64,000 bases of DNA from Neocallimastix sp. 'constans' (Eukaryota), in contig JBODTK010000137.1 in the NCBI GenBank assembly GCA_050613775.1, positions 372,001 through 436,000 of the forward strand. The letters run 5' to 3'. The notes under the pieces were generated by a model, which was not told the DNA's origin, made no database searches, and worked only from the letters and a program-made list of their open reading frames with translations. Within the stretch, counting starts at the first letter, position 1, and each line of letters opens with the position of its first letter. The translations under genes and the position numbers were made by a program. Shown piece after piece: positions 10,135 through 62,667 of this stretch.

Positions 10135-11568
10135 TTAGTTAGTTAACTTTTCCTTTAACATGTTTTCTAATTTACATTGGTCTTCACCAAACTTTCTAAT
10201 ACCTTCACTTAACTTTTCAGTAGCCATAGTATCTTGGTTCATGTCCCAACGGAAAGCAGCTTCATTCTTGATGTAACTAACACGTGGAAGATCCATAGCC
10301 TTAGCATCCTTAACAGTTAACTTTGGTTCTAAAGTTTCCTTTGATTCTTGTAATTCAGAAAGAAGTTTTGGAGAAATGGTTAAGTAATCAACACCAACAA
10401 GTTGTTCAATTTCACCAGTGTTACGGAAAGAGGCACCCATAACAATGGTCTTGTAATCGTATTTCTTGTAGTAGTTGTAGATCTTTTGTACAGAAATGAC
10501 ACCTGGATCTTCAACAGATTCAAAAGTCTTACCAGTGTTCTTCTTGTACCAGTCAAGAATACGACCAACAAATGGTGAAATTAAAGTAACCTTAGCTTCA
10601 GCACAGGCAACAGCTTGTGGGAAACCAAAGAGAAGAGTTAAGTTACAGTGAATACCGAATTCCTTTTCTAATTCTTGAGCAGCTTGAATACCTTCCCAAG
10701 TAGAAGCAATCTTAATTAAAACACGATCCTTACTAACACCTTCTTCTTCATAAAGTTTAATTAATCTCTTAGCCTTTTCAATAGTGGCTTCCTTGTTGAA
10801 AGATAACTTAGCGTTAACTTCAGTTGAAACACGACCTGGAATAACCTTTAAAATTTCACAACCAAAGTTGACAATAAGTTTATCAGCAGCCCAAGCAATT
10901 TGTTCTTCAAGATCACTACAATTTTCAATTATTTATTTTGTTATAATAATAAATATTTTATATTATTAAAAAATATAAAAAAAAAAAAAAAAAAAAAAGC
11001 AAAAAGGAAAAAAATTTTTTCGTTAATTCTATATTACTTCACTTATTCCTTTATTAATTTTTATAAAAATTTCTATTTTATTTTATAATTTATTTATATA
11101 GTAATTTTATTTTATTTTATATTTTATGTAATTTCTATCTTATAATTCACTTCTTTATTACTATTATTTAATAATTCACTTCTTTATTACTATTATTTAA
11201 TAAATATTATAATTTCTTATTTATTTAATTATTTACTCTGACTTAGACTTAGCATAACCTATAGCATTGTCAATAAGGAATGCATACTGTTCCTTTTGAG
11301 AAGCTTGAAGCATAAGAGATGGGTTTGTAGTAGCATCTTGTGGCTTAAATTGAGAAATAGCTATTATTAATATATGAAATTACATAAGCATACCAAAAAA
11401 TATTAGTACATATAATAATAAATTATTTTTTCATATATATTATTATTAAACATATTTTAAATTTCTAACTTATAAACTATTTTAGTAATTTAATTTTTAT
11501 TTTATATTTATTAATAAATATAAAATTTTATTTATAGTAAAATATTAAATTTAATACTACTATATTTC

Positions 11569-39683: not shown

Positions 39684-39739
<56 letters not shown>
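34501..39739 (+). mobile_element. Full-length non-LTR retrotransposon (LINE family A), single ORF
   Basis: ~1-kb 5' UTR, intact 1361-aa ORF, short 3' UTR with AATAAA, ..TAGTCT and poly(A) at 39687-39739. Confidence 0.93.
35510..39595 (+). CDS. LINE polyprotein: putative RRM-like N-terminus, APE endonuclease, reverse transcriptase, C-terminal Cys/His knuckle
   Basis: APE motifs SWNING, CLQE, VGDFN, CIDF and SDHLP; RT motifs KAPGPDG, NYRGISL, QFGFR, FLDLKKAYDSV, GVRQGCPLSP, LFADD and YLG; CPCC..H....C knuckle. Confidence 0.95.
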   Translation: MSTIRRGLRLYGPDHDKFVLIFIHDLESWTESRLWEFLSKKISNCNEVVHGIVKKHYINMENYFILRVNYNNCTDYLKVIYLITKHLPVKRIKWKITSRIRTFSNVNHNSTRYYSEPSIPISESLLYANPFSNTKYFNLCISWNINGWNSEKRDGLTNFNSIFNPICICLQEVGNSSFLNSFSNSYPFLNHYRTVLRRADKKIPGMRGLYIGVHSSCQFTNDDFEYRYILSVNIFSFWGVRCSLGNIYIPSKKHKDSREKAETDFANWLKNHQNNPSAIVGDFNMTKQQLKDLILRISPQWFVMDMVGHQFTWSNGGKNSCIDFIVVNDKLRNYLNIASVCYSFNDISDHLPLILSCKKISPDGFVTPPRDKQIKWSNRICRDKREAIFSHNKFTCLLDEFEHNDNLDSNTMVKKLLDTANKIGDDIQARVPTNLQGSAFHCPAYIKKLSHEKHLFYKRIKNFKLRNDLSNLQEFCDLSKEYRVLSDYIISIKRNIRNIRFNNLIHSIGECFLKNDAQRGWSGLKKISKPSYSPSQSPVYIKDKEGNVLVSQEDQLNRFAEHYEELASDITGHSLNENYWKRILNNSSTPQVSWDINQPISMSEIHSTVLSMKNNKAPGPDGIPTEFFKAFFNSESRNSSQDDSNQEVTYSDCAKCLLLLFNKIWDGDFPNEWNSASIVSIPKKGDLSDCNNYRGISLINVGLKILSKIVTKRISDYAFSNGIIRPEQFGFRNKEECISLFVSIREICQRRKFKDKFTFLAFLDLKKAYDSVPIYNILTKLDNLGIRGKCLQFITNLYLTSKARANFNGKLSKEFPIHRGVRQGCPLSPILFNIFINDIFDKCKRYGVITEKKKCCGGLFADDIVLLAPTKSSLKNLLNIAHDWGIKNEMTFGINKCATLVVKPKNFIPSRHYENPTFRLGMNYIPSTNQYTYLGIPFNESLDLKPIIAKMNSKINYTVNSFFSFLTNRNVPFYFKTRILVSFVLSSVLYYAPLLGSNKKNTEKAQTAFNRGLYWSFGFKNKTSNTSIYNMSKELSIPPIASFCAKAMIRCFKKWKDSSCIISHLVKNIPTLSHYSWTKKARSLAVHKHSNKLPGEIRKFYWENIHYSSTPAIRSTKYKKFKFGFKKFIHRLSLKYSQFSLGFFWIGRIKCGFKFDVKTYVKSNLVSENCPTYCPCCGESNSIPSFTHWILLCPKFEEFRQHFIPFVDEIFINFSLIVHEKSLNIPDDKEEDFDDNINFYVLCLLLGGNAVFEILKIGSGERRRYINNIFQSPSNESSFPISYFVGLAEFLTNVMPIVIGDFYTMIDLYSVRPTVVKSVDVVTIRQRRNSDTDSNDNFHPHGVIFDEWEELEAFSSSNLIT

Positions 39740-39743
<4 letters not shown>

Positions 39744-42539
39744 TTGAATAAAGATTTCAAAAATGGTTGGAGATGTTTAAAGAAAATGGCTAAACCATCA
39801 TATTCATCTACCTCCCTTACTTGCATTAAATCTAAGTTTGGTCAAGATATTATCTCTCCTTCAAAGCAATTAGATAGATGGGCTGAATATTATAAAGATC
39901 TTGCTTCGGATCCCTCAGGTCACAGCCTTAATCGTAATTACTGGAATCATGCTTTAAGGAATATTAGTCTTAGATCCACTACCTGGAATATAAATGGTCC
40001 TATTACGATTGAAGATATTAAAAAAACTATTTCATCGATGAAAAATAACAAAGCACCCGGCCCCGATGGTATTCCGATTGAATTCTACAAAGCTCTTTTT
40101 TGTAACGAAGAATTACTAGAATCACATCCTGCTGCTGGAAAGTGTCTAAAATTGATATTTAATAAAATATGGAATGGGTCATTTCCTAAAAAATGGAACT
40201 CAGCTTCTATTGTATCAATTCCTAAGAAGGGTGACCTATCAGATTGTAGTAATTATCGAGGTATTTCTCTCATTAACGTTGGACTAAAAATCATTTCAAA
40301 AATTATAACAGATAGAATATCTACTTACGCACTCTCACACAATTTCATTAGACCTGAACAATTTGGATTTCGCAACCGCGAAGAATGCATTAGTTTATTC
40401 ATTTCCGTTAGAGAAATTTGTCAAAGAAGAAAATTCCAAGGAAAATTCACATATTTAGCTTTTTTAGATCTTAAAAAAGCTTATGATTCAGTTCCTATTT
40501 TTAACATTCTTACTAAATTATATCATTATGGAGTACGCGGTAAATGTTTTGATTTTCTTTGTAATTTATATACTTCATCTAAAGCACGTGCTCGATTTGC
40601 TTCAATGTTATCAAATGAATTTCCTATTAAAAGAGGTGTTCGTCAAGGTTGTCCTTTATCTCCAATCTTATTCAATTTATTCATCAATGATATACTAAAT
40701 AACTGTGAAAAGTATGGTGTTAATGTTGGAAGAAAAAAGTGTTGTGGTGGACTCTTTGCTGATGATGTTGTTCTCATTGCTCCAAATGCAAAAAATTTAG
40801 AAAAATTATTAAAAAAGGTACATAAATGGGCTAATTTAAATGAAATGACTTTTGGTATTGAAAAGTGTGCAACTATGGTTATAAAACCAATGAACTTCCA
40901 ACCTCCTCCAAACTATAGTGATCCAACCTTCTATTTAGGAAAGAATGATATTCCTAAAGTTTCTAGTTATGTCTATCTTGGTATTCCTTTTTCAGATGAT
41001 CTCCTACTAGAACACATTATATCTCACATGCATTTTAAAGTTAGAAAATCCCTTCTTTCATTTACACGTTTCTTTTCAAATAAACTTATTCCTATTGTAT
41101 ACAAGAAAAAAGTTCTTCAATCCTTTGTTATTAGTAAAGTAATTTATTATTCTCCTTTACTTGGTTCAAACAAATCTAGAACGGCTAGAATTCAAACATT
41201 AATTAATACTGGTCTATTTTGGTGTATCGGTTCCTTCTCTAAAAATGGTAAAACAAATACAGAAAACAATGACTATATTAGACATAATTCAACAATGAGT
41301 ACTTATGCTTTATCTCGAGATCTAAGCATCCCTCCTATTGCTGGTATCTGCGCAGCCTTACAGATTAAATCATTTGCAAAATGGAGTAAATCAAACTGTA
41401 TCATAAAGGATCTTATAAAATCTATTCCCAAAATGCCTTATTATTCCTGGACTAAAGAATCTAGAACACTATATAAAAAAATCAAAAAATATAAATGTGT
41501 AAAATATGACGATATTATAGAACGTTACTGGAAATCAGTTTCCAGATTTCAAGGTATTAAAGGTCAAAACTACGATAGTAACAAGTTCTCAAACAATAAA
41601 GCTATAATAATGCTTAGCTTAAAATATCCCCAATTCAACTTAGGATTTTCGTGGATTATACGTTTACGCTGTGGTTATAAATACAATACTACTATTGCTA
41701 TTAGAATGGGTAGAGTTTCAGAAGATTGTCCAAAGTCCTGCCCATGTTGTGGTGAAGGTAATCAATCTTTTGAACATTGGATTTTTAAATGCGATGCTCT
41801 TGCATCTTTTAGATGGAATTCTTTAAATTTCATCGATGATCTCTATGTTTTATTCCTTAGGAAGATTAGAGCGTTTAATCCTCTTTCTTCCTATGACTCT
41901 ATTTCTGATTTTGAAGATTATATCAATCATTATATATACTTGTTCCTTCTTGGTGGGACTTTAGTTTTAAATGAACTACATTTCGATAGTGGGGAACAGA
42001 GACATTTAAATGAACTACTTTTCAAAGGTTCATCTGAGTCACCTGTTCCGAAAATTGTGGGCTTGGCGGAATTCTTAACAAATGCAATACCTATCATAAG
42101 TAGTTCGTTTGAGCTATTATTTGATAGGTATTGCAAAATATCAAACTTAACCAAGAGCGTCGACGTCGTACTGATAAGGCATAATGAAAATACAGGATTA
42201 TCATCTATTACTACGAAGGGTGATTCTCACCCTAGTAGCTCAATAAATGATGAATCCGGGGAGAGTTTAGTGGACACCACACTATCTATTTTAAGGATGT
42301 TACTTCTAAATTTTATTTCTTTTTTATTTGATAGGAAGGGTAAAATTCCCGCATAGTACAACTTGCCGAAATACATAGTATTTTCGAGCTTTTTTATTTT
42401 TTATTTTTTATTTTTTAATTTTTTATTTTTTAATTTCTAATGTACTTTTCACCTACATGTATTTTTTAAAATAAAATTTAATAAAGTTTTTGGAAGTGTA
42501 TTCTCTTCCCTGTCTAAAAAAAAAAAAAAAAAAAAAAAA
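39740..42539 (+). mobile_element. 5'-truncated LINE family B with an open RT ORF (39744-42356)
   Basis: 870-aa open frame with all RT motifs and the knuckle but no APE domain; starts directly after the family A poly(A); ends GGAAGTGTATTCTCTTCCCTGTCT-(A)n. Confidence 0.93.
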
Positions 42540-45500
42540 TTCTGATAGTAATCTTTAACAGCCAAAATGTTTTATTTAATTGTAAAATATATTAACAATA
42601 GAAATAATATTGTTAATAATACCCCGAGCAGGAGTGTACTCGATTTATGTATTTAAATCGCCTGCAAGGGGAATTAACTTTACTCTTATAAAGTAGATCC
42701 ACAGTACTGGTGCAAAATAGTAGTAAAGTTATATTTTGTGTTAATTAATAACATTATGCGCAATGGTAATGTTATTGGTAAAATTTTTCTGGTGAACACT
42801 CACTGCGGAATATAATGGTGCATTTTTGGAACATTGTTAAATAAGTTACACCCAAGAATTAGTAATACATTTTCATTGTATTTCTATTTTCATGTAGTAT
42901 TACTATTCTCATGTAAGAATCTATTGTATTCAATTGTATTTCAACTTTATATTTCATGTATCACGTTGTAAGAGATTGATTCACTCTAAATCTTGTAGTA
43001 ATTTATTTAACTCTTTACTAATTTTGTGCCATTTTATTTCATCAATTCAATCTTAGTCATTAAATACTTTATGATATTCAATTTAAATAATATACTGAAA
43101 AAAGTGCTAAATCAAATTATTTTTCAATCATTCAACAAACTACTAATTATCGAAATTATTTACTCCAAAAAGATATAAAATTATTACAATTCTCATTATA
43201 CTCAAGACTTTATAATAAAAATTGACTTTTTTTTTATTTTTTTTTTTTTAGTTATTAATTTTTAGTTTTTTATTACTATTATGGAAATCCAATTTATAAG
43301 AAATAAGAATTTCATTCTAAGAGGTTCAAGGTGCCACGGTATACCAATGGAGAATACGAAACTACTCTTTATCCGCGGACTTCGATCTTGGCCAGAAATC
43401 AAAATGAGAAGACATTTAAAGAAAACTCTGAATGAATTAAATGATAAGGTTTTATCAGTTAAACGTATTGCTAATTTTAATGATGCATTCTTTAAAATTA
43501 AAATAGTAGGTAATGAAGAAGAATTAACATCTATTACCGATTGTATTGTTAATAGTTTCAAACGTGCTTCAATTAACGTTATTAATTGTAGCAAAAGGAA
43601 TCATAAATACAGTTTTTCTTCACTCAAAAGGAAACATTTTGCCTTATCAGAAAAAGTGAATTCATCTTATAATATCAACTTATTCACTACTTCAAATTCA
43701 AATGCAGATTCAAGTCAAAATTCAAATTCAAGTTCAAATACAGATTCATGTTCAAGTTCAAGTACAAGCTCAAGTTCAAGTTCAAGTACAAGTTCAAGTA
43801 CAAGCTCAAGTTCAAGTTCAAGTACAAGTTTAAGTACAAGTTCAAGTACAGGTTCAAGTTCAAGTTCAAGTCCAAGTTCAAGTACAATTTCAAGTTCAAG
43901 TTCAAGTACAAGTTCAAGTACAAGTTCAAGTTCAAGTTCAAGTTCAAGTTCAAGTACAAGTTCAAGTTCAATTTCAAATTTATGTTTAAATTCAGTTTCA
44001 AGCTCAGATTCAAATTCAAATTTCAGTTCAATCAATTATAATAATTCCAATAATATTAATAACACTCATATTAATAATAATACAGTTAAAGAATTTTCTC
44101 TATGTGTCAGTTGGAATACTAATGGATGGAACTTTGATAAAAAAGACAGTGTTGAATTCTTTATTTCAATGTACAAACCACTTTTCTTATGCTTTCAGGA
44201 AACAGGAAATGGTTCAGGTTCTAGCAGTAAATATCCATGTCGAGTATCATTAAAAAACTACAAACATTTCTTCAAAAAAGCTAATAATGAAATTCCCGGT
44301 AAAAGAGGTCTTTATATTGGGTTTCATAATTCTTGTCAAGCCTCTCTTGAAAACAACACTTATGAGTATATTATTTCCTTGTATACTTATAATTTTTGGA
44401 ATTTCACTAAATGTTCTATTGGTAATGTGTACGTACCTCATAGTGGCCATAGCCTTCATGCTAGAGCTGCTAGAATTGAAATATTGTCTTGGTTAAATAG
44501 TCACTCTTCTCATCCTTCAATGTTGGTTGGTGATTTTAATTTACCTACTGAGAAATTAGGTAATTTGCTCTCTAAATTTAGTAATTGGAAAATTCTTCCC
44601 TTATGGGGCTCCCCAATTTCATGGAGTAGAGGTAATAGAGAATCTGATATAGATCATGCGATTGTCAATGATCATATGTTAGATTTACTTTCATATGGTA
44701 CTTTTATTGATTTTCCCCCCCATTTCGGATCATAAACCTTTATTAATAAAAGGTAAATGTTTTTCATCAGTTAATTCAGATAATTCTTTCTCTCTGCCTA
44801 AAAAGACAGTTAAATGGGATAGATTAAAATGTATAAATGAAAAAGAATCAATTTTTGACAACAACTATTTTAGTGTATTAGAGGAAGTGATTCCAGATCC
44901 TAATATTAGTATTGATGATATTTCAAAGAAATTTATTTCAACTTCATTCAATATTGCTAAGGAACTTAATATCACGTCAATTTCAGAAGTTCGAAAATCT
45001 TTTTTTCATATGTCGCAGAAAATATTTAATTTGCAAAAACTCAAAATGAAATTATATAAATCCATTAAAAGAAGAGGTTCTTATCATAATTTAGATGAAT
45101 TTGAAGAATTAATTGATAAATATAATAGAATGTGCAAAATTATTCATCATATGTGTAATATTTATAGGAAAACTGAATACCAACATTGGATTAATACAGG
45201 ATGTGAATATATGAAATCTCATAACCCTAAAAAAGCTTGGAAATGGCTTAAAACAACAGCAAAAGTAGATAAATTTAAAAATATGTCAAATTCTCCAGTA
45301 AAGGACAAAAATGGTAAACTAGCTACTTCTACTAAAGAACAGTTAGAAGTATGGCACAATCACTATAAAAAACTTGCTTCAAGCCATTCTGATATCAATA
45401 GTGCATTAATCGAATGGTATAATAAATTTTCCAATGGAACAATTAGGTATACGAGACACAATGAATGGGATATAAATCAAGACATCAGTATAGAAGAAAT

Positions 45501-47992
45501 TAGAGAAGCAATTTTGGCTACTCCAAATTTTAAAGCTTCAGGCCCGGATGGAATTCCTATTGAATTTTATAAAGCTTTAATTCCTCCGGATGACGAAAAT
45601 TCAGTAAATAATTCTTCTTCTGGTTTAAATTGTTTACAGAAGATATACTCAAGAATTTGGAATGGAGAATTTCCTAGCTCATGGAATGAAGCAAGTATTA
45701 TATCTATTCCTAAAAAAGGAGATGATCTATCTGATTGTGACAATTATCGAGGTATCTCTCTGATTAACAATGGTATTAAACTCGTTTCGAAAATAGTCTC
45801 CAAAAGAATTTCAGAATATGGACTTAAAAATAATTTTATTAGGCCAGAGCAATTTGGATTTCGTACTAAAGAAGAATGTGTTAGTTTATTTATTTCAATT
45901 CGAGAAATTTGTCAAAGGCGTAAAAATGATAATAAAGAAACTTACCTAGCTTTTCTAGATTTAAAAAAGGCATATGATTCTGTTCCAATAGGTAATATTT
46001 TATATAAATTAGATGCTTTAGGTATTAGAGGTAAATGTTATCAATTTATAAAAAATCTATATTTGACATCCAAAGCTAGTGTTAAAATTGATGATCAATA
46101 TTCGGAATCTTTTAATATTATGAAAGGAGTTAGACAAGGTTGTCCACTATCACCAATTCTTTTCAATCTTTTTATTAATGACATTTTTAATGATGTTTCA
46201 GAACTTGGAATTCCTTTAGGCGAATCTAGATGTTGTGGTGGACTCTTTGCAGATGATATTGTTCTATGCGCACCGTCAAGAACTAAGTTGAAAAAAATGC
46301 TTAAGAAGGTAAATGAATGGGCTAAATTTAATATGATGAATTTTGGAATTAATAAGTGTGCAACGATGGTGATTCGACCAGACACACCTCTTTTTCAAAA
46401 TAAAAGAGATCCTACTTTTTATCTTGCTGGTCAACCAATTCCAATAACTAAATGTTATACCTATTTAGGTATACCATTTGATAAAAGCTTATCGTTGAAA
46501 CCTATTATTAAATTACTTAACTCTAAAGTAACTAAAGCTCTCTTTTCTGTTAGTAAATTTCTTTCAAATTCCAAAATTCCTATTCCATTTAAGAAGATTA
46601 TAATTAACTCTTATGTACTTAGTAAAGTCTCTTACTTTGCACCTTTACTTGGTTCGAATAAAACGAGAACAAATAATACTCAGAAATTAATTAATAAAGG
46701 ATTAAGATGGATTGCAGGTATACAAAAAGCCAAATCATTTATTAATGTATATTCTATTTCAAAAGATTTACATATTCCTCCATTGTCAGCTAAGTGTGCT
46801 TTGTCTCAGGTCAAATGTTTTGATAAATGGAAAAATTCAAATTGTATTATTTCCTATTTAGTTAATAATATTCCAAAATCTAGAAAATATACATGGACAA
46901 AAGAAAGTAGAACTCTTAAACGTAAACTAGAGAAAAGAGGTAATAACGATAATAAAATCAAGGATTTTTATTGGAAAAGAGATATGAAAATCAATTCTAT
47001 TAAAGCTGAGTTTTATGACAAAAACAAATTCGAAGAAACATCAAAATTTATAAAACTTTGTTATGACTATCCTGATCTTTCATATGGTTTCTATTGGCTA
47101 TTGAGAGCACGAAGCGGATATAGATTAGATGCTAGAATTGCTAAAGCTGCAAAAATAGTGGACCAAATGTGTCCTAATTTTTGTCCCTGTTGTAAAAGTA
47201 ATAAACAATGGATAAGTCATTGGTTAATTGATTGTCCCTTTTTCAATCATACTCGTAGTAAAGTTAATGATAAAATTTTATTTTTATATAATGCTTTTTA
47301 CCGTGGCAACCTAACAAATGATATTGTTAATAGTAATAATGATAATAGTAATAGTAATAATAGTAATAGTTATAATAGTAATAATAATATTAGTAATAGT
47401 ATTTTTAGTAATGTTAGTAATAGTATTGAAAATAATGTGTATATTGATTCTAGTGTGTGTGAAAAAGTGTTTAATTTCCTTCTTGGAGGTCGAAGTATTA
47501 ATAACAGTACAAGGGAATGGAAGGATCTATTTAAGTGCCAGATGAAATCAGGTGCTTATTCTGATACTCCGTTCTTAGTGGTTACTGCGGCACTTCTCCA
47601 ATCGATTATACCTATTGCTATTGGCCAGCAATGGTCTTTGTTCAATAGGTTCAAATCGAATCGTACTACTACTACCAAGAGCGTCAATGCTGAAGAAACA
47701 GTAAGACAGGCCAGCAGGGCTAGCGCAACCAATGAAGATCATAATTTTGTATCTTAAAATTATGATTAACAATGCGAAGTCAAAATTAATTATTATACTT
47801 CAGTATAATAATGCCCTTGTGAAGTCTTACAAATATTAATTATATGAAACTAGAATATATTATACCATTATTTTATTTTATTTTGTGTTTTATTTTTTGT
47901 TTATTTTTTTATTTTTTTATCTTTTTTTTATAATTTTATTACATGTATTTTATCAAATATTTAATTAATAAAGATGAAACAAGTTTGATGTC

Positions 47993-48024
<32 letters not shown>
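42540..48024 (+). mobile_element. Near-full-length LINE family C
   Basis: 5' UTR 42540-43280, coding region 43281-47757 split by one frameshift, 3' UTR and poly(A) at 47996-48024. Confidence 0.92.
43281..47757 (+). CDS. LINE polyprotein (RRM-like, Ser-rich linker, APE, RT, knuckle) with a frameshift at a C7 run near 44715-44721
   Basis: ORF 43281-44735 holds SWNTNG, CFQE, VGDFN and DIDH; ORF 44695-47757 continues with SDHKP and the RT motifs. Removing one C restores a single frame. Confidence 0.88.
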
Positions 48025-48026
<2 letters not shown>

Positions 48027-49295
48027 AAAAAGACTTTTGGTATTGAAAAATGTGCAACTATGGTTATAAAACCAATGAACTTCCAATCTCCTCCAAACTA
48101 TAGTGATTCAACCTTTTTTTTAGGAATGAATGCTATTCTTAAAGTTTCTAGTTATATTTATCTTGGTATTCCTTTTTCTGATGATCTCTTACTAGAACAC
48201 ATTATATCTCACATGTATTTTAAAGTTAGAATATCCCTTCTTTCATTTACACGTTTCTTCTCAAATAAACTTATTCCTATTGCATACAAGAAAAAAGTTC
48301 TTCAATCATTTGTTATTAGTAAAGTGATTTATTATTCTCCTTTACTTGGTTCAAACAAATCTAGAACGGCCAGAATTCAAACATTAATTAATACTGGTCT
48401 ATTTTGGTGTATCGGCTCCTTCTCTAAAAATGGTAAAACATGTTCAGAAGACAAGGACTATATTAGACATAATTCTACTATGAGTACATATGCTTTATCT
48501 CGAGATTTAAGCATTCCTTCTATTGCTGGTGTCTGCGTAGCCTTACAGATTAAATCATTTGCAAAATGGAGTAAATCAAACTGTATTATAAAGGATCTCA
48601 TTAAATCTATTCCCAAAATGCCTTATTATTCCTGGACTAAAGAATCTTGAACAATGTATAAAAAAATCAAAAAATATAAATGTGAAAAATATGACGATAT
48701 TTTAGAACGTTACTGGAAATCAGTTGCCAAATTTCAAGGTATTAAAGGTCAAAATTACGATTGTAATAAGTTCTCAAACAATAAAGCTATAATTATGCTT
48801 AGTTTAAAATATCCCCAATTCAACTTAGGGTTTTCGTGGATTATACGTTTACGCTGTGGTTATAAATACAATACTACTATTGCTATTAGAATGGGTAGAG
48901 TTTCAGAAGATTGTCCCAAGTCTTGCCCCTGTTGTGGCGAAGATAAACAATCTTTTGAACATTGGATTTTTAAATGCGATGTTCTTGCATCTTTTAGATG
49001 GAATTCTTTAAATTTCATCGATGATCTCTATGTTTTATTCCTTAGTAAGATTGGAGTGTTTAATGCTCTTTTTTCCTATGACTCTATTTCTAATTTTGAA
49101 GATTATATCAATCATTATATATACTTGTTCCTTCTTGGTGGGACTTTAGTTTTAAATGAGCTACATTTCGATAGTGGGGAACAGAAGCAATTGAATGAAC
49201 TACTTTTCAAAGGTTCATCTGAGTCACCTGTTCCAAAAATTGTGGGCTTGGCGGAATTCTTAACTAGCGTAATACCTATCATAAGTAGTTCGTTT
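48025..49295 (+). mobile_element. LINE family B fragment, truncated at both ends, with a premature stop
   Basis: Near-identical to 40841-42110; TGA at 48648-48650 replaces AGA; starts at the family C poly(A). Confidence 0.92.
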
Positions 49296-50178
49296 AATAC
49301 TGACACCATAAATAGCTATGTACTTGCAGTTATAAGAAAAGATAAATCCATAAAAGTTAAAATGAAGTCCCCGTATAAACCAAAGAAAGATGATCGACCC
49401 AACAAAAATGAATCAATAATAAGAAAGGATAAATTAATAGATAATCCCATTTCCATCAACACTAATGCCATGAAACATCATTCCACAAAACAACAATGCA
49501 CTTACCAATAATGATGTGGAAATGGATGAAGTTGAAGGAAATTATAACCATAAGAAATTATGATTTTAGAATTTATTTTTTATGTTAAATATAGTTTATC
49601 TTCATAAATTTAAGTATAATATGATTATGTTATCCATATTATAATTTTTATAATCACGTGATATAATTTATTTAAATAATTTTTATCATCGTAGTAATTA
49701 ATAAAATGGATTCATATATTAATTGTAATTTTATTATTTAAAATTTTAATTTTAAAATATCATGATTAAAAAAATAAGTGGGGTAAATATAAATATATAA
49801 ATATATATATTGTAATATTATTTATTAATATATTATAGAATATTTTTTTATAAAAACATTTTTATATTACTATTAGCCAATCATTAATAAAATAATTATA
49901 AAATTTTTTCTTCATGCATTTAATCTATTTTTTAAAATTTTTTTTTTTTAAAATTTTAAAATATTCCTTTTTTTTAAAGAAGGTATAATTATAATTAAAT
50001 AATTTAGTTTTTTTTATAATTGTTATTTAGTAAGTTTGACTAAGGAAATTTACATTTTAGTTATAATTTTAAATTAAAATTTAATATATATTTATTTTTA
50101 AATGTTAAAAATATTATTAATAAAAATAATAAATTGTTTTATATTTGTTTATGTAAAAAATTTAGTAAAAAAAGAAAA

Positions 50179-51505
50179 ATGCTTTTCTTTTTAACTTTGA
50201 CCCAAAATTGCAATTTAGCTTGTACATATTGTGGTTCAGATGGCAATGCTGATATTGAAAATATTTTAGAAGAAGATCAACCAAAAGAAATTAGATATAA
50301 ATTGAACAATTTAGAAAAATTAAAGAATGTAATATTTCTTAATATATATAATTATTAAAGAGTTAATATAATATGATGGAAATAATTGAACCTTAAAAAC
50401 TTATTATTTTTATAATAAAATACAATAATATATATAAAAATATATAAATATATAAAAAAGATAAAAGATGATTTAATTATCTGTTTCTATGGTGGTGAGC
50501 CTTTATTAAAACCAAGAGTAATTAAAAAGGTTATTGAAATGCATCCAAACGCCAAATTTTGTTTACAAACAAATGGTACTTTGTTAAATCGTTTTAATAC
50601 AAAATTAACCAATCAAATGGATACAATATTAATTTCTGTTGATGGTGGACCAGAAGTTACTAACAAAAGTAGAGGAAATGGAACATGGGAAAGAGCTATT
50701 AATAATGCTAGATATATTAGAAAGAATGGTTATAAGGTTAGTTTATTTATAACGAAAATAATAATTTTTAAAAATATGAATAAATAATTAATTGTAATTT
50801 TGATAATAATAGAATGACCTTGTTGCTCGTATGACTGTTTCTAATGTTAGTAATGTTTACGAAGATGTTAGATATTTAATTGAATTAGATGATGGCCTTT
50901 TTGATCATGTTCACTGGCAATTGGATACGCAATGGTCAACTCCATGTTTTGCTGGATATGATAACTTCTTAGATTGGAGAGATAATAATTATAATGTTGG
51001 TATTACAAAATTAGTTAATTGGTTTGAAAAGGAAATTGTTGAAAAATCACGTGTATTAGGTATTGCACCTTTTTTACAAGTTCTTCATGATATGATTACT
51101 GGAAGAAAATCTCGTCTTCGTTGTGGATCTGGTTTAGATTCATTTAATGTTGATACAGGAGGTGAAATTAATCCATGTCCAATCGCTCCAGAAACTCATG
51201 AATTAGCAATGATTCAAGATGAAAATTTCCAAACACCCGAATCTTTAAGAGATTCAGTTAAAATTGCAGGATTATGTACAGATTGTGAAATTTTAGATTT
51301 ATGTGGTGGTCGTTGTTTATATGCAAACCAAACCATGTGGTGGGGTGAAGAAGGTTTTAAAGAAGTTTGTGTTACTGTTAAGCATTTAATGAATGAACTT
51401 AAGCGTATTTTGCCAAGTATTAAGCAAGCTATTGCTGATGGTAAAATTACTTTAGAGGACTTAAACTATCCAAAATATAATAACTCCGTTGAAGTCATTC
51501 CATAG
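50179..51505 (+). CDS. Radical SAM/SPASM-domain protein, resembling the AF0577 (TIGR04084) putative peptide-modifying family, ~372 aa, 3 exons
   Basis: Exons 50179-50328, 50461-50736 and 50813-51505 are all phase 0 with GT-AG ends. CNLACTYC (CxxxCxxC), FYGGEPLL, LQTNGTLL, ISVDG, IxARMTV-like LVARMTV, HVHWQLD, RCGSG..GEINPCP, and CTDCEILDLCGGRC (Cx2Cx5Cx3C). The family call is from recalled motifs, not a search. Confidence 0.88.
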
Positions 51506-53067: not shown

Positions 53068-53550
53068 TTAATAAGGTTATTTATGAGTAAATATAAATAG
53101 GTAATTCAATTTAAATAATGTTAAAATAATTTCTTAATTATATTTGTAATCAAATAATTTCCCCCTAAAGCAAAGTATTTAATATTATTACACCGTTAAT
53201 ATTAGATGTTTCTAAAACATCTCTTATAAAATATGGTATATATATTTACCATTTGTATGATGGAAACCTTTCTCTTGAAGGGTGATATTATACCATCTCA
53301 TATTGTGTGAATACCTCCTATATATTGGGTTTTACATCACTTTCAATTATAATACTTTTTATAGATTAGCGCTAACTTTTATATTATTTTCGCTTTGTTT
53401 CGAGATTCATATTAGATGAGTTTTGTAAAAACATCCTCGAATTAAGTTTTGTTACATTAAAGTAACTTGTAATCATCATATAAATTATTATTAACCTGTA
53501 TAAATTTTTTAGATATAAATTTATTATAGTGGTATCTTCAACTTATAGTC

Positions 53551-54945
53551 AAGTAATTTATTATTCTCCTTTACTTGGTTCAAACAAATCTAGAACGGCC
53601 AGAATTCAAACATTAATTAATACTGGTCTATTTTGGTGTATCGGCTCCTTCTCTAAAAATGGTAAAACAAGTTCAGAAGACAATGACTATATTAAACATA
53701 ATTCTAATATGAGTACTTATGCTTTATCTCGAGATCTAAGCATTCCTCCTATTGCTGGTGTCTGCGCAGCCTTACAGATTAAATCTTTTGCAAAATGGAG
53801 TAAATCAAACTGTATTATAAAGGATCTTATTAAATCTATTCCCAAAATGCATCATTATTCCTGGACTAAAGAATCAAGAACAATGTATAAAAAAATCAAA
53901 AAATATAAATGTGAAAAATATGACGATATTTTAGAACGTTACTGGAAATCAGTTGCCAAATTTCAAGGTATTAAAGGTCAAAATTACGATTGTAATAAGT
54001 TCTCAAACAATAAAGCTATAATTATGCTTAGTTTAAAATATCCCCAATTCAACTTAGGGTTTTCGTGGATTATACGTTTATGCTGTGGTTATAAATACAA
54101 TACTACTATTGCTATTAGAATGGGTAGAGTTTCAGAAGATTGTCCCAAGTCTTGCCCCTGTTGTGGCGAAGATAAACAATCTTTTGAACATTGGATTTTT
54201 AAATGCGATGTTCTTGCATCTTTTAGATGGAATTCTTTAAATTTCATCGATGATCTCTATGTTTTATTCCTTAGTAAGATTAGAGCGTTAAATCCTCTTT
54301 CTTCCTATGACTCCATTTCTAATTTTGAAGATTATATCAATCATTATATATACTTGTTCCTTCTTGGTGGGACTTTAGTTTTAAATGAGCTACATTTCGA
54401 TAGTGGGGAACAGAGACAATTGAATGAACTACTTTTCAAAGGTTCATCTGAGTCACCTGTTCCAAAAATTGTAGGCTTGGCGGAATTCTTAACAAGTGCA
54501 ATACCTATCATTAGTAGTTCGTTTGAGCTATTATTTATAGGTATTGCAAAATACCAAACTTATCCAAGAGCGTCGACGTCCAACTGATAAGGCATAATGA
54601 TAATACAGGATCGTCATCTATTTCTACGAAGGATGAATCTTGCCCTAGTAGTTCAATAAATGATGAATCCGGGGAGAGTTTAGTGGACACCACACTATCT
54701 ATTTTAAAGATGTTACTTCTAGGTTTTATTTCATTTTTATTTGTTAGGAAGGGAAAAATTCCCGCATAGTACAACTTGCCAAAATACATAGTAGTTTCGA
54801 GCTTTTTTATTTTTTTATTTTTTTAATTTTTTATTTTTAATTTCAAATGTACTTTTCACCTACATGTATTTTTTAAAATAAAATTAATAAAGTTTTGGAA
54901 GTGTATTCTCTTCCCTGTCTAAAAAAAAAAAAAAAAAAAAAAAAA
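53551..54945 (+). mobile_element. 5'-truncated LINE family B with a 14-bp TSD
   Basis: Near-identical to 41137-42539; TSD TTCAACTTATAGTC at 53537-53550 and 54946-54959; 1-nt deletion near 54536. Confidence 0.95.
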
Positions 54946-57560: not shown

Positions 57561-60500
57561 CTAGTTTTTATGTATAAAAACTTGGTTTGCGAAGTTCGTC
57601 ATATCTTTTCCATTTTTATTTTTAGTGAGTATGTCAGCTAACATTTGTTTAGATTCAATATATTCTAATTTTATATTTCCTTTTTCAATATTATCTTTGT
57701 TAAAAAAATACTTGATTGAAATATGCTTTAATTTAGTGTTTATTTCATCATTTTCTATATTTGTTTTATTTGCTATATTATCAGTATAAATTGTTATTGG
57801 TTTTTTAAAGTTAAATAATTCTTTAAGAATATTTCTAAAATATAAAACCTTTTTTACACATTCTGAAGTACTGATATATTCAGCTTCGGCTGTCGATGTA
57901 GCTACTATTGTTTGTTTTTTAGAATACCAGCATATAGGATATTTACCCATTAGGATAATATGCCCTGAAGTTGATTTTCTATCTTTGATGTCTCCAGCGA
58001 AATCCGAATCAGTGTAACCGATAATTTCACCTTCACCATCATAACATATTTTATAATATTTTGTGTTATTTAAATATTTTAATATATTAGTAACTTTTAC
58101 CCAATCTGTAATAATAGGATTTTCTGAATTTCTTGCAGCTTTATGTACTGCAAAAGAAATATCAGGTCTAGTACATTTGGATAAATATATTAACATGCCT
58201 ATGGCACTTTTGTAGGCTGTTCTATCAAAGGGTTTATTATTTTCACCTTTGATATTATCACCAACACATGGAGTACTTACTTTTCTTGTATATTTTATGT
58301 TAAAATTTTCCAAAATCTTATTAATATAATTTACTTGAGAGATTATATATTTATTATCAATTTTCTTTACTTCAATTCCAAGAATATAATTTATTTGTTC
58401 TGATTTGGATATTTTAAAATTATTCTTTATAATATTAATTGTATTTTGTATTTCTATTTTTATACCTGTAATGACCATGTCATCTACATATACACCTATT
58501 ATAACTAATACATCACCTTTTTCATTTTTCTTAACGAATATACATTTTTCTGTTATTAATTGAGTATATCCGTTTTTGATTAAAAATTTTGATAAAGTTT
58601 TGTTCCATTGTCGGCCAGATTGCTTCAACCCATACAATGCCTTATTCAACTTCCACCATCCCCTCCCAAAGTTAGGATCTCCTAGCGGAATAGACATATA
58701 GATTTCTTTGTCTAAATCTGCATTGAGATACGCAGCTTTAATATCTAATTGTTGAATTGGCCATTTGTATTTTGCAGCAAGGGAGAAAATAAGTTTTAAG
58801 GTGTCTGTATTGAGAGTCGGAGAATAGGTTAAATCATAATCGATACCACGTCTTTGTCTAAAACCTCTAGCTACAAGATGTGCTTTTCTTTTGGTAATAA
58901 TATATTCACCATTATATTTATTTGCAAAAACCCACTTTGAAGAAATAATATTTTTTCCTTTAGGAATATACTTTACAAAAGTAAAAATATTATTATCATA
59001 TAAATTTTTAAGTTCATCCTGAATTGCTTTTTCCCATTCTTCATGGTTTTTACATGTTATAGCTTCAGTATAGGAAAGAGGAACATTTGTGGAAATGGTA
59101 GCAACATATCTATTATTATTTATTCTTTTGTATTTAATAGGCCGTAAAATACTCTCTTCATAATCAACTTCAGAAAAATTTCTTTTTAAATTAATATTGT
59201 TATTAATGATATTTGAATTATTTTTAATAAAAGCAACATTACTTTGGCTATTATCAATATAGGAAGTATTTTCAGAATTATTATAATATAAATTATTTTT
59301 ATTTATATTTTTATTCTTTTTGTTATTTGAGATTTTATTATTTAATAATTTATTATTTAAATTTTTATTTAAATTAAAATTATTATTAATATTTAAATTT
59401 TTATTAAAATTTAATATATCTTGTGAAACATTTTTTGTTTTGTCAATAACAAGTTGCCTTCTTCCTCTTTTAAAGTTTAGTTTTATCCTTTTGTTTACAT
59501 TAAGAGAAGGTGTTTTTACACTTTTATTTTGTAATATATTATTATTTAACTGATTGTTATTAATATTGAATTTTGGATTTAATTCTGATTTATTTAATAT
59601 ATGGGAATTTACATTTTGTAAAATATTATCTGTATATTCTTTATTATTTGATTCATTTTGAATTTTATTATTACTATTCAAATTTTTAATTTCATGATTA
59701 TTAATATTATTTCCATTTATGGAATTATTATTATTGTCATCAGAAATTTTATTATTTTCATATGAATTAGAGTTTTCAGTAGAAAAATTTTTTTCAGAAC
59801 TTAAATTATTATAATTTTCTTCAATATTTACATTTTCAGATTTTTCATCAAAATTTTGAAAATTTTTATTAATAAAATTTTTTTCATCCACTGCGTCAAA
59901 AAATTCATATCATCAGAAAAATTATTAGGATCTTCTATTTCTTTTTCTTGGGTTACCTCAATATTGCTTTTCTTTTTCATTTTATTTTCATTTTTATTTA
60001 CATCATTATTATGGCTTTCGTTTAATGTATTTTCAATATCATTTTTAGTATTAGTAATAGTATTAAAATCAGTATTATTAATATCACCAGAATTTTCTTT
60101 TTCAGAAATATTTTTATTTTCATTTTCTACTGAATTTGAATCCAAGTTTTTATGGTCATTTTGACCAGGAAAATTAAGATTGTACCACTTTTTATCCTGT
60201 TTGTCTTGCTAAAATTAAAGTCAAAATTTAAAAAGGATGGATATCCATTTTCTTCACCTACTGAATTAGATAGTGAGAGTTTTGCTGGCTCATTTTCTTT
60301 ACATATTATTTCTCTAACATTATGGATTTTATAATCTTCATAATCCATAACAATATTAGAGTTAGTAACTTCACTAAATCCAAGGAAAATTCTTTTCTTT
60401 GAATTTGGTGAAAACTTAGATTTATTTTGATCAAAAATTTTATAATAGGTAATACATCCAAAAGTCCTAATATGATCAATTTTAACTTTTTCATTGAAGA

Positions 60501-62621
60501 AAACTTCATCTGGGATAGTTTTCTCAGAGATAAGATGCGGAGTTTTATTATATAAATAATTTGCATATTGGATAGCGAAATCCCAAAAATTTTCAGATAA
60601 TTTGCTCCAATATAGCAAAGTTTTAGTACAAGAAATAATGGTTTGATTAAACCTTTCTGCTAAACCATTATTTTCTGGATTGTAGGGAGGAGAATAAATT
60701 TTATTTATTCCGTTATCTTTACAAAATCTAGTTAACTTTTTATTTCTATATTCCTTAGCATTATCAGACTTAAAATTTTTTACTTTTTTATCATTAAAGA
60801 TATTATTTAAATATTTAATAAAATCAATAAGTAAATCAATTGTTTCTGATTTACTTTTCATCAGAAAAATCCAACTTTTATGTGATTTTTCATCAATTAC
60901 TGTTAGTATAAATCTTTTCCCAGTAATTGAATCATTAATTGGTCCAATAATATCGGAATGTATTATTTCTAATATTTCTGTTGCTTTTGGAGTTTCTTTG
61001 TTATGTGGGAATCGTTTTAATTTTTCAATTTTACAGTCAATACATTCTGATTCTTTAATATTATGAATATCTAAATATTCATTTAAATTTTCTAAATAAT
61101 AATGGCCTAATCTTCTATGCCATAATAATTTACTTTCATTATTTAGTTTATTTATTGCCATTATATTATTTTTATATTTTCTTTTATTGAATTATCATGT
61201 ATTGCTGTAATAATTAATTCATTGCGACTATTTGATACAAATGATCCTATAGTTTTGTATAGGTTATCCATTAAAGTAATTTTAACTGTATCATTATTAA
61301 TTGATTCAGTTAGAGTCTTAATGCCTAATTTAGCTAATTCCACACCACTTATCATGTTCTTGGCAACATCTTTTGAGTATAATACGCGCTTTAAAATAAT
61401 TTTATAATTATTTATAAAGAAAGAAAATTCTCCATAACCTTCAAAGGTGCATACAGTATTATTAGCACAGGTTAATTCAATTTCTTCTTTTTTGTAGTTT
61501 TTTAATAAGTTTTTATTGTTTGTTAAGTGTTCTCCTGCTCCAGAATCATATAACCAGTAGGATTTATCATAGAAATTAATTGAAGAAATGTTCTTTAACA
61601 CTTTTGACGAGTTATTTTTATAATTAATTAAATATACTGATTTATGAGATTTATTAGTGTCCTTTTTAAACATGATCTTTATATCTTCATAATCTACATT
61701 AGCATTGTATTGTTCATTTATATTATATTGTTTAATTATTCCTGTATAATATGTTCCTTTTCCTTTTTTCTTTGAAGATGATTGATTATTATTATTACTT
61801 TTACTATTGTTTGTGTTCTCTTCCTTGGAATACTCTTGGTTTACATATTTATTAAATTTACTGTTCTTATTTAACGCGTTAAACCAGCAATCAGAAGTGT
61901 TGTGATTATTTTTATTACATATATGACAGTATTTTTTATCTGCTTTCTTTGTCTGGTAGTTTCTTTTATTGTTATTTTTATTCTTCTTTTGGAATTTACC
62001 AGCATAGTCTATTTCCATTGGATCATCCATATGTTGATTATTTAAGTTCCATTGTTGGATATAAGCAAGTTTGTTTATGTCTTCCACTATTTTCTTACTA
62101 ATACTAGTAAAATTATCTATATCAGTAAGAGTAAATTTATTTGTATAATCTTCTGGCATAGCGTTAAATAGGTATCTTAATTTTTCATCTTCAGATAAGT
62201 GGAAATTTATATTATCCATGTTTTCAAAAATATCTTTTAACTGATCTATCACGTCTAGGATTCCTTGTTTATTAGTTGTTTTTATTGAGTTTAATTTCTT
62301 CAACCAGTATGATAAATCAGTAGTTGAACTACCATATTTCTTCTTTAATTTTGATATAATTTCATAGGAAGTATTTAGTCCTACTATTTCTTTATGGATA
62401 TTTATATTTATTGTATTTAGAATTTTAGATACAACTTTTGCATCCTTTTTAATTTGTTCTTTCTTATCATTTGGTGGATTATCAATATCCACATTATTCA
62501 ATACATTTTCTTTAATGTAGTGTAATAAACCTTCCTTTCTTAGTTCATTGCACAGATAATTAAACCATAACGCATAATTATCTGTACCTTTTAATATTAT
62601 ATAATTATTAATCTCGCTCAT
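57561..62621 (-). CDS. Copia gag-pol polyprotein, broken into four frames (61161-62621, 60127-61161, 59828-60145, 57561-59891)
   Basis: CCHC knuckle CHICNKNNHNTSDC, protease WLYDSGA, WHRRLGH, integrase HSDIIGP..KSDNAKEY..ENNGLAER, RT QLDIKAAYLN/ALYGLKQSGRQW/YVDD, RNase H YTDSDFAG/STAEAEY/MLADILTK. Confidence 0.92.
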
Positions 62622-62667
62622 GGAAAAAATAATAAATTTTTAATTTATTAATATATTAAAATTTTTA

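What the first reader, a model, noticed from the sequence alone, without database searches (positions are those of the whole stretch)
50179..51505. Intron-containing archaeal-type radical SAM/SPASM enzyme in a fungal genome
Seen: an intact CxxxCxxC motif, a full SPASM cysteine set, two spliceosomal introns and host-like codon usage, so this is an integrated gene rather than contamination. No signal or targeting extension precedes the first beta strand. Established: SPASM-domain rSAM enzymes mostly modify peptides or proteins in prokaryotes; from memory, the AF0577 family is mainly archaeal, with members in anaerobic protists (Trichomonas, Entamoeba, Giardia), and has unknown function. Inference: an old horizontal acquisition giving a cytosolic, oxygen-sensitive protein- or peptide-modifying chemistry shared by unrelated anaerobic eukaryotes. 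I found no credible precursor-peptide ORF nearby, so the substrate is probably encoded elsewhere.
Basis: partly seen in the sequence, partly recalled or inferred. Interest (0 to 1): 0.75.

Follow-up and report, generated by a model that had tools for sequence, protein, structure and literature searches.

The report
Candidate oxygen-free hypusine enzyme, gut fungus
A gut fungus has a spliced gene for an archaeal-type iron-sulfur radical enzyme of an unstudied family, which possibly (about 40% odds, untested) finishes the hypusine mark on translation factor 5A without oxygen, a step whose enzyme has not been identified in archaea.

Summary
The gene is real. Splicing is seen in RNA contigs. The 372-aa product equals an annotated Neocallimastix protein and passes TIGR04084 (AF0577; 329.6 vs 225 bits). 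It has seven SPASM cysteines, not eight, and a nearly invariant E-x-x-P C-terminus (371 of 375). Eukaryotic copies form one clade inside archaea. They include Phytophthora and an ascomycete, and Sulfolobus acidocaldarius has the family, so it is not anaerobe-only. Early transfer and inheritance from the eukaryote ancestor cannot be told apart; a fungus-oomycete transfer is indicated. No precursor peptide or fixed neighbour was found. My best guess (0.4) is an oxygen-independent deoxyhypusine hydroxylase for eIF5A/aIF5A. It fits the published hypusine pattern in the four archaeal controls and the lack of DOHH in Entamoeba. A fold with aIF5A gave weak support (0.50, best control 0.01). Against: two genomes carry both it and a half-size DOHH, some methanogens carry it, and a published aIF5A pull-down lacks it. 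This scan noted the family before on other DNA (Giardia, archaea); one note already named it as a hypusine candidate.

The parts
49981..50029 (+). Non-coding 5' UTR exon (lower bound of its extent)
   Evidence: Contig record 9 of run X2 joins 49981-50029 to 50166
50030..50165 (+).
   Evidence: Joint in 1 of 4 runs, loose ends at 50166 in X1 and X6; 9.6% GC
50179..50328 (+). Coding exon 1 (residues 1-50)
50209..50232 (+). Radical SAM CxxxCxxC motif (C11, C15, C18)
   Evidence: Sequence; 374 of 375 homologues keep each Cys
50251..50277 (+). Acidic insert after the motif (D-I/M/V-E core), shared by eukaryotic copies
   Evidence: 12 of 12 eukaryote-clade proteins shown; low pLDDT at residues 21-31
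50329..50460 (+). Intron 1 of the coding region, 132 nt
   Evidence: offsets of contig record 10 in run X2; identity with P0121
50461..50736 (+). Coding exon 2 (residues 51-142; GGEP, QTNG, SxDG motifs)
50737..50812 (+). Intron 2 of the coding region, 76 nt
   Evidence: Joint in 4 of 4 runs
50813..51505 (+). Coding exon 3 (residues 143-372 and stop)
51122..51370 (+). SPASM domain span, seven conserved cysteines C246-C328
   Evidence: TIGR04085 33.5 bits vs cut-off 27; each Cys kept in 371-375 of 375
51491..51502 (+). Invariant C-terminal E-x-x-P tail, predicted lid of the active site
   Evidence: 371 of 375 full-length homologues end this way; structural overlap with C-terminal segments of viperin and BtrN

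Best explanation
This is a spliced, single-domain radical SAM/SPASM enzyme of the archaeal TIGR04084 family that possibly acts as an oxygen-independent deoxyhypusine hydroxylase, finishing the hypusine modification of translation factor eIF5A. Shown: gene, family, cysteine set, invariant tail, single eukaryotic clade. Inferred steps: (1) the protein stays in the cytosol and binds three iron-sulfur clusters, the first auxiliary one with an open iron site; (2) the deoxyhypusine side chain on the exposed eIF5A loop enters the barrel, which the E-x-x-P tail closes, and its amines are held by acidic groups (E369, the terminal carboxylate, D180, the eukaryotic acidic insert); (3) the 5'-deoxyadenosyl radical takes a hydrogen from C2 of the aminobutyl group, the auxiliary clusters remove an electron, and water supplies the hydroxyl. 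This would replace the O2-using di-iron DOHH in archaea and in eukaryotes that live without oxygen. Origin: one entry from archaea into eukaryotes (ancestral or early transfer, undecided), with at least one later fungus-oomycete transfer.
For: Stand-alone and nearly always single-copy in archaea, with no shared neighbour or peptide, as expected of an enzyme for a housekeeping target. [quoted passage not shown] The four archaeal control genomes match this: S. acidocaldarius has the family; H. volcanii, M. jannaschii and M. acetivorans do not. 50 of 75 genomes of the Thermoproteia-side class have it. S. solfataricus DHS makes only deoxyhypusine and the second enzyme is unknown (PMC6105217, sections read). 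E. histolytica has the family and lacks DOHH (PMC7909649, passages). DOHH activates dioxygen at a di-iron centre (PMC9117371, passages). All family-bearing genomes in two samples have DHS (50 of 50, 52 of 52); this is a weak test, as DHS is near-universal. In one class of 41 genomes: family 13, half-size DOHH homologue 9, both 0 (Fisher p 0.038, lineage-confounded). Predicted complex of a cognate archaeal pair (L189 with aIF5A L204, genome G387), named before the job was sent: weak support, score 0.50 (runs 0.50, 0.56, 0.02), best of 3 controls 0.01. The mark was reached by 116 of 157 solved and 2 of 215 mismatched pairs; at 0.60 or under, by 18 of 157 solved and by both mismatches. Run agreement at least 0% of contacts; partner pLDDT at least 86.
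Against: No biochemistry, and no interface was returned. The paired alignments came from the same genomes, so shared ancestry may inflate the score, and the pair was archaeal, not fungal. In 151 Thermoplasmatota genomes, 2 of 8 with a half-size DOHH also have the family (expected 25%; p 1.0); my threshold was at the edge and probably missed many half-DOHH genes. 25 of 75 Thermoproteia-side genomes lack the family, and 5 of 5 of those tested have no half-DOHH either; Pyrodictium itself could not be checked. Methanomicrobiales, Methanoperedens and 35 of 151 Thermoplasmatota have the family although methanogens and Thermoplasmales are reported with little hypusine; another paper lists T. acidophilum and H. 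cutirubrum as hypusine-positive (PMC9599864). The 31-protein S. solfataricus aIF5A pull-down lists no radical SAM protein. T. vaginalis DHS is reported to do both steps (cited in PMC6105217; original not seen). No aIF5A gene lies beside the family gene in 186 loci. Phytophthora and Cirrosporium would not need an O2-free route (recalled). Whether Neocallimastix lacks DOHH was not testable. The closest solved folds (CteB, anSME) form thioethers or aldehydes, not carbon hydroxyls.
Confidence: 0.4

Rival explanations
1. It modifies a different conserved cytosolic protein, for example by a Cys-to-carbon thioether cross-link as QhpD and CteB do, using the open iron site of the first auxiliary cluster to hold a substrate thiol.
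For: Seven-Cys SPASM with CteB spacing. Next-best families are thioether formers: PapB 106, nif11 70, QhpD-type 68 bits, all far below their cut-offs. CteB 5why is the top structural match (Z 28.1, rmsd 3.1, 307 aligned), tied with anSME. Stand-alone single-copy gene.
Against: No target can be named. No recurring Cys-rich neighbour outside one methanogen family. The invariant tail is predicted to fill the space where peptide substrates bind (inference).
Confidence: 0.25
2. It acts on a small molecule (nucleotide, cofactor or tRNA-base precursor), with the C-terminal tail sealing the active site as in MoaA and viperin.
For: 371 of 375 homologues end exactly in E-x-x-P. The model aligns to residue 366 with nucleotide-bound viperin (6q2p, 6q2q) but only to about 290 with 5vsm/5vsl, and to 370 with BtrN. 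MoaA's essential C-terminal tail is proposed to seal its active site (PMC9026282, passages). In Archaeoglobi the gene sits beside a Vut_1 transporter (5 loci) or QueC/QueE (2 genomes).
Against: No pathway cluster outside single lineages. Vut_1 does not co-occur: 19 of 52 with the family vs 48 of 99 without (p 0.17). Only one invariant Arg (R148) is placed on a barrel strand besides R121 and R309, unlike the three Arg that bind GTP in MoaA.
Confidence: 0.24
3. It is an anaerobic sulfatase-maturating enzyme (formylglycine formation), as some automatic names of homologues say.
For: anSME is the best Foldseek match (4k39, E 1.6e-16). Some Phytophthora and Trichomonas records carry that name.
Against: Seven rather than eight cysteines, and Pro in 359 of 375 at the position after C264 where anSME has Asp (its role as base is recalled). 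TIGR03942 is not listed at E 1e-15 for the whole protein. E. histolytica's five sulfatases are Zn-type, not formylglycine-type (PMC6801973, passages). No sulfatase among the neighbours scanned.
Confidence: 0.04
4. It matures a ribosomal natural-product peptide (RiPP) encoded elsewhere.
For: The SPASM fold and JGI's family wording 'putative peptide-modifying'.
Against: No N-terminal recognition domain. Among 3247 short ORFs near the gene in 156 loci, the 14 largest shared clusters are confined to single lineages. No transporter or protease cluster. A single-copy, near-core distribution (26 of 27 in one phylum sample) is unlike natural-product genes.
Confidence: 0.04

Closest known systems
NCBIfam TIGR04084 (rSAM_AF0577), radical SAM/SPASM subfamily of unknown function
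   Same: Over the curated cut-off across the full model (329.6 vs 225 bits); same motifs and C-terminus; already annotated 'radical SAM enzyme' in Neocallimastix, Anaeromyces and Piromyces.
   Different: Three spliceosomal introns and an acidic insert after CxxxCxxC shared by the eukaryotic clade.
CteB (PDB 5wgg/5why), thioether-forming SPASM maturase
   Same: Same fold (Z 28.1, rmsd 3.1, 307 aligned) and the same seven-Cys spacing.
   Different: No N-terminal recognition domain, no precursor peptide, extra invariant C-terminal tail; 22-24% identity.
anSMEcpe (PDB 4k36-4k39), anaerobic sulfatase maturase
   Same: Same fold (Z 27.9, rmsd 2.9, 326 aligned), no leader-binding domain, protein substrate.
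   Different: One cysteine fewer; Pro where anSME has Asp after the cluster cysteine; no sulfatase link.
Eukaryotic deoxyhypusine hydroxylase (DOHH/Lia1, EC 1.14.99.29; PDB 4d4z)
   Same: Proposed same substrate and product (untested).
   Different: Unrelated fold and chemistry: DOHH is a HEAT-repeat di-iron monooxygenase that uses O2; this enzyme would use SAM, iron-sulfur clusters and water.
MoaA and viperin (radical SAM enzymes closed by a C-terminal tail)
   Same: A strictly conserved free C-terminus predicted to close the active site.
   Different: Full SPASM rather than Twitch or no auxiliary cluster; tail is E-x-x-P, not GG; Z 15-17 only.

Membership tests
TIGR04084 (AF0577 family) | Whole-protein score over the curated cut-off of 225 bits | tested here: met
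   329.6 bits on P0001, which differs from the window's protein at 1 residue
TIGR04084 (AF0577 family) | Radical SAM CxxxCxxC motif and core motifs | tested here: met
   C11/C15/C18, GGEP 61-64, SxDG 109-112; PF04055 65 bits vs 29.5
TIGR04084 (AF0577 family) | C-terminal SPASM domain | tested here: met
   TIGR04085 33.5 vs 27 bits; seven conserved Cys
Radical SAM superfamily (activity) | Reductive SAM cleavage to 5'-deoxyadenosine; three Fe-S clusters | not testable with these tools
   Needs anaerobic reconstitution
anSME (TIGR03942) | Eight-Cys SPASM with Asp after the cluster cysteine | tested here: not met
   Seven Cys; Pro265 in 359 of 375; the eight-Cys count and the Asp's role are recalled
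anSME (TIGR03942) | Family score over 349 bits | tested here: not met
   Not listed at E 1e-15 for the whole protein; 25.6 and 14.6 bits on exons 2 and 3
RiPP thioether maturases (CteB, PapB, QhpD type) | Seven-Cys SPASM with CteB spacing | tested here: met
   C246-x12-G-x4-C264 aligns with CteB
RiPP thioether maturases (CteB, PapB, QhpD type) | N-terminal recognition element and neighbouring precursor peptide; family cut-off | tested here: not met
   Fold starts at residue 2; no cross-lineage short ORF; PapB 106 vs 340 bits
DOHH (EC 1.14.99.29) | HEAT-repeat fold with His-Glu di-iron motifs | tested here: not met
   Radical SAM barrel plus SPASM; not a member, the claim is only that it may work like one
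DOHH (EC 1.14.99.29) | Binds eIF5A/aIF5A | tested here: inconclusive
   Weak support on an archaeal cognate pair: 0.50 vs best control 0.01; at 0.60 or under 18 of 157 solved and 2 of 215 mismatched pairs pass
DOHH (EC 1.14.99.29) | Converts deoxyhypusine to hypusine | not testable with these tools
   Needs an assay or a knockout

The most novel reading that the evidence does not exclude
TIGR04084 is the long-sought second hypusination enzyme of archaea: an oxygen-independent radical SAM deoxyhypusine hydroxylase, older than DOHH, inherited or acquired once by early eukaryotes and kept by gut fungi, Entamoeba, trichomonads, Blastocystis and other oxygen-avoiding microbes in place of the O2-requiring DOHH.
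Probability: 0.4. Interest if true: 0.9.

Novelty: new member of a known kind. Interest (0 to 1): 0.62.

Why it matters
The gene itself is an annotated member of a named but unstudied family. The value lies in a cheap test. Papers read here call the archaeal hypusination pathway unsolved (PMC6105217, PMC5178350) and find no DOHH in Entamoeba (PMC7909649). If this family is the missing enzyme, it closes that gap. It would add carbon hydroxylation of a protein side chain to SPASM chemistry and explain how strictly anaerobic eukaryotes finish a modification that otherwise needs O2, alongside the known O2-free swaps for sterols, NAD and CoA in gut fungi (PMC8262920, passages). It would also bear on whether the eukaryote ancestor carried an anaerobic route from its archaeal parent. 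If the guess is wrong, the invariant tail and the Sulfolobus copy still give a tractable way to find the substrate.

Tried and rejected
Contamination: rejected (introns spliced, host codon use, orthologues in four gut-fungal genera). Own-genome search: no genome is held, so DOHH, DHS and eIF5A of this fungus were not checked. Neighbourhood: no family in more than 8 of 80 loci of up to 6 kb a side; Pfam on 150 of 151 immediate neighbours, 82 of 182 ORFs and 62 of 73 cluster representatives plus one ORF showed only lineage-level gene order. tRNA genes in 10 of 60 loci, no pattern. Queuosine/archaeosine link (Vut_1, QueC, QueE): Archaeoglobi only, no co-occurrence. Treble-clef zinc finger as substrate: only in 8 Methanoregulaceae-side loci. 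Fusions: one archaeal APH-kinase fusion with 2 members; the longer-protein search found only modest extensions, 12 proteins of 404-439 aa. Trees: the careful 80-row tree did not finish, so I used its quick form and a careful 42-row tree; other rows were left out to save time. The archaeal sister group is unresolved: eukaryotes plus Asgard p-AU 0.051, plus the TACK/Archaeoglobi/DHVE2 clade 0.40. PF13646 searches in 15 family-negative genomes found no half-DOHH; a half-DOHH query found none in 5 family-positive and 5 family-negative Asgard-side genomes. No aIF5A or family gene lies in 81 half-DOHH loci. ESM Atlas gave only the same family. Literature: TIGR04084 had 0 occurrences in the 20 of 29 papers listed, and their AF0577 matches look, from titles and abstracts, like unrelated strings. 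Neocallimastigomycota + horizontal gene transfer + radical SAM gave 0 papers. Searches listed nothing on this family's function (listings only). Supplements of PMC9255765 have no row for the orthogroup of the Spironucleus/Giardia radical SAM protein (that this orthogroup is the family is my guess). bioRxiv 10.1101/487215 has no 'radical' in its main text; its supplementary HGT tables were not seen and may list the gene. The anSME structure paper was not available, so the point that the His tag sits in the substrate site is recalled. The wide structure search and a second read-laying on four more runs were not obtained; intron 1 and the UTR intron rest on one call.

Full report
OBSERVATION. The window is very AT-rich and the gene lies between retroelement-like ORFs (element names recalled from their motifs). 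Ten GT/AG combinations keep an open frame from 50179 to the stop at 51505. The one with introns 50329-50460 and 50737-50812 gives 372 aa and is identical to P0121, annotated in Neocallimastix californiae (ORY41121.1) and N. lanati. In contigs of four public runs, intron 2 is skipped in 4 of 4; intron 1 follows from the offsets of one contig in X2; and a third intron, 50030-50165 in the 5' UTR, is skipped in X2, with loose ends at 50166 in X1 and X6. Contigs show the joined form, not strand or level. A second variant with about 8% different letters in three runs is probably the paralogue P0122, which differs at 6 residues (inference). Codon use and intron composition are host-like.

FAMILY AND ANATOMY. 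P0001, one residue from the window's protein, scores 329.6 bits on TIGR04084 (cut-off 225); the next family, PapB, gives 106 against 340. The AlphaFold model (pLDDT 89.2, 34-row alignment) matches anSME by Foldseek, and CteB and anSME equally by VIA-align (Z 28.1 and 27.9). In 375 full-length homologues the three radical SAM cysteines and seven SPASM cysteines are kept in at least 371. R148, W177, Q178, Y202, R309 and E369 are nearly invariant, and 371 end exactly in E-x-x-P. The spacing C246-x12-G-x4-C264 is that of CteB, and the next residue is Pro, where anSME has Asp. By analogy with CteB (recalled) the first auxiliary cluster has an open iron site. The model's last residues overlap the C-terminal segments of nucleotide-bound viperin, BtrN and BlsE and the tag extension of 4k36, so the tail is predicted to close the active site, as proposed for MoaA (PMC9026282, passages). 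I could not inspect coordinates.

DISTRIBUTION. Named eukaryotic homologues: Neocallimastix, Anaeromyces, Pecoramyces, Piromyces, seven Phytophthora species (59-61%), the ascomycete Cirrosporium (55-57%), Pygsuia, Pelomyxa, Entamoeba, Trichomonas, Tritrichomonas, Histomonas, Anaeramoeba, Blastocystis, and a record whose identifier I recall as Mastigamoeba. Giardia appears only in earlier scan notes. All 80 genome loci kept, of 577, are archaeal by title, led by Njordarchaeota at 47%. Over the cut-off: 52 of 151 genomes around an Archaeoglobus genome, 26 of 27 in a second phylum sample, 80 of 151 around an Asgard genome, 50 of 75 in the Thermoproteia-side class, 35 of 151 Thermoplasmatota, 13 of 41 in a Nitrososphaerota-side class, nearly always in one copy. 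Among 14 control genomes only Sulfolobus acidocaldarius has it. The family is therefore not confined to anaerobes.

ORIGIN. In a quick 80-row mixture-model tree the 40 rows that include all named eukaryotes form one clade (SH-aLRT 99; many rows are unnamed and taken as eukaryotic from their placement). In a careful 42-row tree this clade has 100/99, and gut fungi, Cirrosporium, oomycetes and one unnamed row form a clade with 100/100. Twelve of 12 members shown share an acidic insert after the first motif. AU tests: fungi plus Pygsuia without oomycetes is rejected (p 0.003; the unnamed row was counted with fungi). Not rejected are fungi alone (0.27), Archamoebae (0.20), Metamonada (0.064), stramenopiles (0.063), eukaryotes with Asgard (0.051) and eukaryotes with the TACK-side clade (0.40). 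So: one entry into eukaryotes, at least one fungus-oomycete transfer, donor unknown. The ascomycete copy means the gene may be old in fungi rather than a gut-fungal acquisition. I put ancestral inheritance with losses and early transfer with spread at about even odds.

NO LOCAL SUBSTRATE. No neighbour family recurs beyond single lineages. Short ORFs are shared only within lineages, and those near the fungal gene are low-complexity or element-derived. A queuosine-precursor link in Archaeoglobi failed a co-occurrence test (19 of 52 vs 48 of 99). anSME function is unlikely from the residues and from Entamoeba's lack of formylglycine-type sulfatases (PMC6801973, passages).

HOW IT MOST LIKELY WORKS. 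A single-copy orphan shared by archaea and oxygen-avoiding eukaryotes suggests an O2-free stand-in for a housekeeping oxygenase. I wrote down the deoxyhypusine hydroxylase idea before reading on it. The papers fit. Archaea have no DOHH orthologue, yet hypusine was found in Sulfolobus, Pyrodictium, Thermoproteus and Acidianus, and little or none in halobacteria, methanogens, Thermococcales and Thermoplasmales (PMC5178350, passages). Sulfolobus DHS stops at deoxyhypusine (PMC6105217, two sections). E. histolytica lacks DOHH, and its modification state is unknown (PMC7909649, passages). DOHH needs dioxygen (PMC9117371, passages). The four archaeal controls agree with this pattern, and every family-bearing genome in two samples has DHS (weak). 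The acidic tail and insert suit a doubly charged amine side chain on a basic loop (inference). A predicted complex of the cognate pair from genome G387, with three clusters and SAM riding along, gave weak support: 0.50 (0.50, 0.56, 0.02), best of three controls 0.01. The mark is reached by 116 of 157 solved and 2 of 215 mismatched pairs, but at 0.60 or under by only 18 of 157 and by both mismatches; run agreement at least 0%, partner pLDDT at least 86, no interface given.

RESULTS AGAINST. An earlier scan note (e1-9990267, seen) claims that this family and a half-size DOHH exclude each other in archaea. I found such half-size proteins, with two His-Glu motifs and human DOHH as best natural PDB match (E 2.5e-25). 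Exclusion held in one class (13 family, 9 half-DOHH, 0 both, of 41; p 0.038, confounded by lineage; 5 of the 13 rechecked with a profile, none positive). It failed in Thermoplasmatota (2 of 8 half-DOHH genomes have both; p 1.0; threshold too strict for a full count). A third of Thermoproteia-side genomes lack the family, and five tested have no half-DOHH. Some methanogens carry the family. The published aIF5A pull-down lists no radical SAM protein among 31. T. vaginalis DHS is reported bifunctional (second-hand). The hypusine status of Thermoplasma and Halobacterium differs between papers. No aIF5A gene neighbours the family in 186 loci. The fungus's own DOHH status is untested.

VERDICT. A real, integrated, already annotated gene of a known but unstudied family: a new member of a known kind. 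Best mechanism at 0.40: oxygen-independent hydroxylation of deoxyhypusine on eIF5A. Rivals: another protein target (0.25), a small molecule under a tail lid (0.24), anSME or RiPP (0.04 each). Interest 0.62, because one knockout in Sulfolobus or one anaerobic yeast complementation would test a question the papers read here call unsolved. The scan has noted this family several times on other DNA; those notes are leads, not support.

Noticed in passing
L272, L273, L275-L278, L285, L287, L289; L302-L309; L311-L374: Half-size (about 150-165 aa) DOHH homologues with two His-Glu motifs in 9 of 41 genomes of one archaeal class, at least 8 of 151 Thermoplasmatota and 64 metagenome loci; best natural PDB match of L273 is human DOHH 4d4z.
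   Followed up: partly
P0190 (692 aa, archaeal MAG; cluster of 2): TIGR04084 enzyme fused behind an APH-family phosphotransferase domain; a single lineage, meaning unknown.
   Followed up: partly
P0264, P0266, P0273, P0274, P0280, P0282, P0291, P0295 and 8 more: A distant subfamily of 16 proteins keeps the E-x-x-P end and seven cysteines but has Asp after C264, as anSME does, and mostly lacks Q86 and H176.
   Followed up: partly
window 50166 (run X1 loose end): An RNA contig joins 50166 to an upstream exon that differs from the window's and contains an upstream start codon; probably the paralogue's 5' UTR with a very short upstream ORF.
   Followed up: no
window 35495-49511 and 53484-54822: A nest of LINE-like reverse-transcriptase ORFs (1366, 890 and 1024 aa, plus fragments) on both sides of the gene; names from recalled motifs.
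   Followed up: no
window 57561-62639 (-): Ty1/copia-like element in several ORFs (gag, integrase, reverse transcriptase); names from recalled motifs.
   Followed up: no
window 10135-10932 (-) and 31732-33678 (+): Exons of a transaldolase-like and a hexokinase-like gene (recalled names), used only as codon-usage references.
   Followed up: no
L088-L091, L094, L084, L087: In Archaeoglobi the family gene lies beside a Vut_1 transporter, a metallophosphoesterase and a metallo-beta-lactamase-fold gene, or head-to-head with QueC/QueE.
   Followed up: yes
L050, L051, L104, L109-L111, L113-L116, L119-L121, L123, L126: In one archaeal lineage the gene is mostly head-to-head with SAM synthetase and followed by a small HTH regulator, often then a methyltransferase or isochorismatase-fold gene.
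   Followed up: no
P0334, P0328, P0033, P0326 clusters (389, 95, 41, 17 members): Abundant unnamed 393-435 aa homologues with N-terminal extensions group with Anaeramoeba in the trees; possibly gut protists such as ciliates (guess).
   Followed up: no
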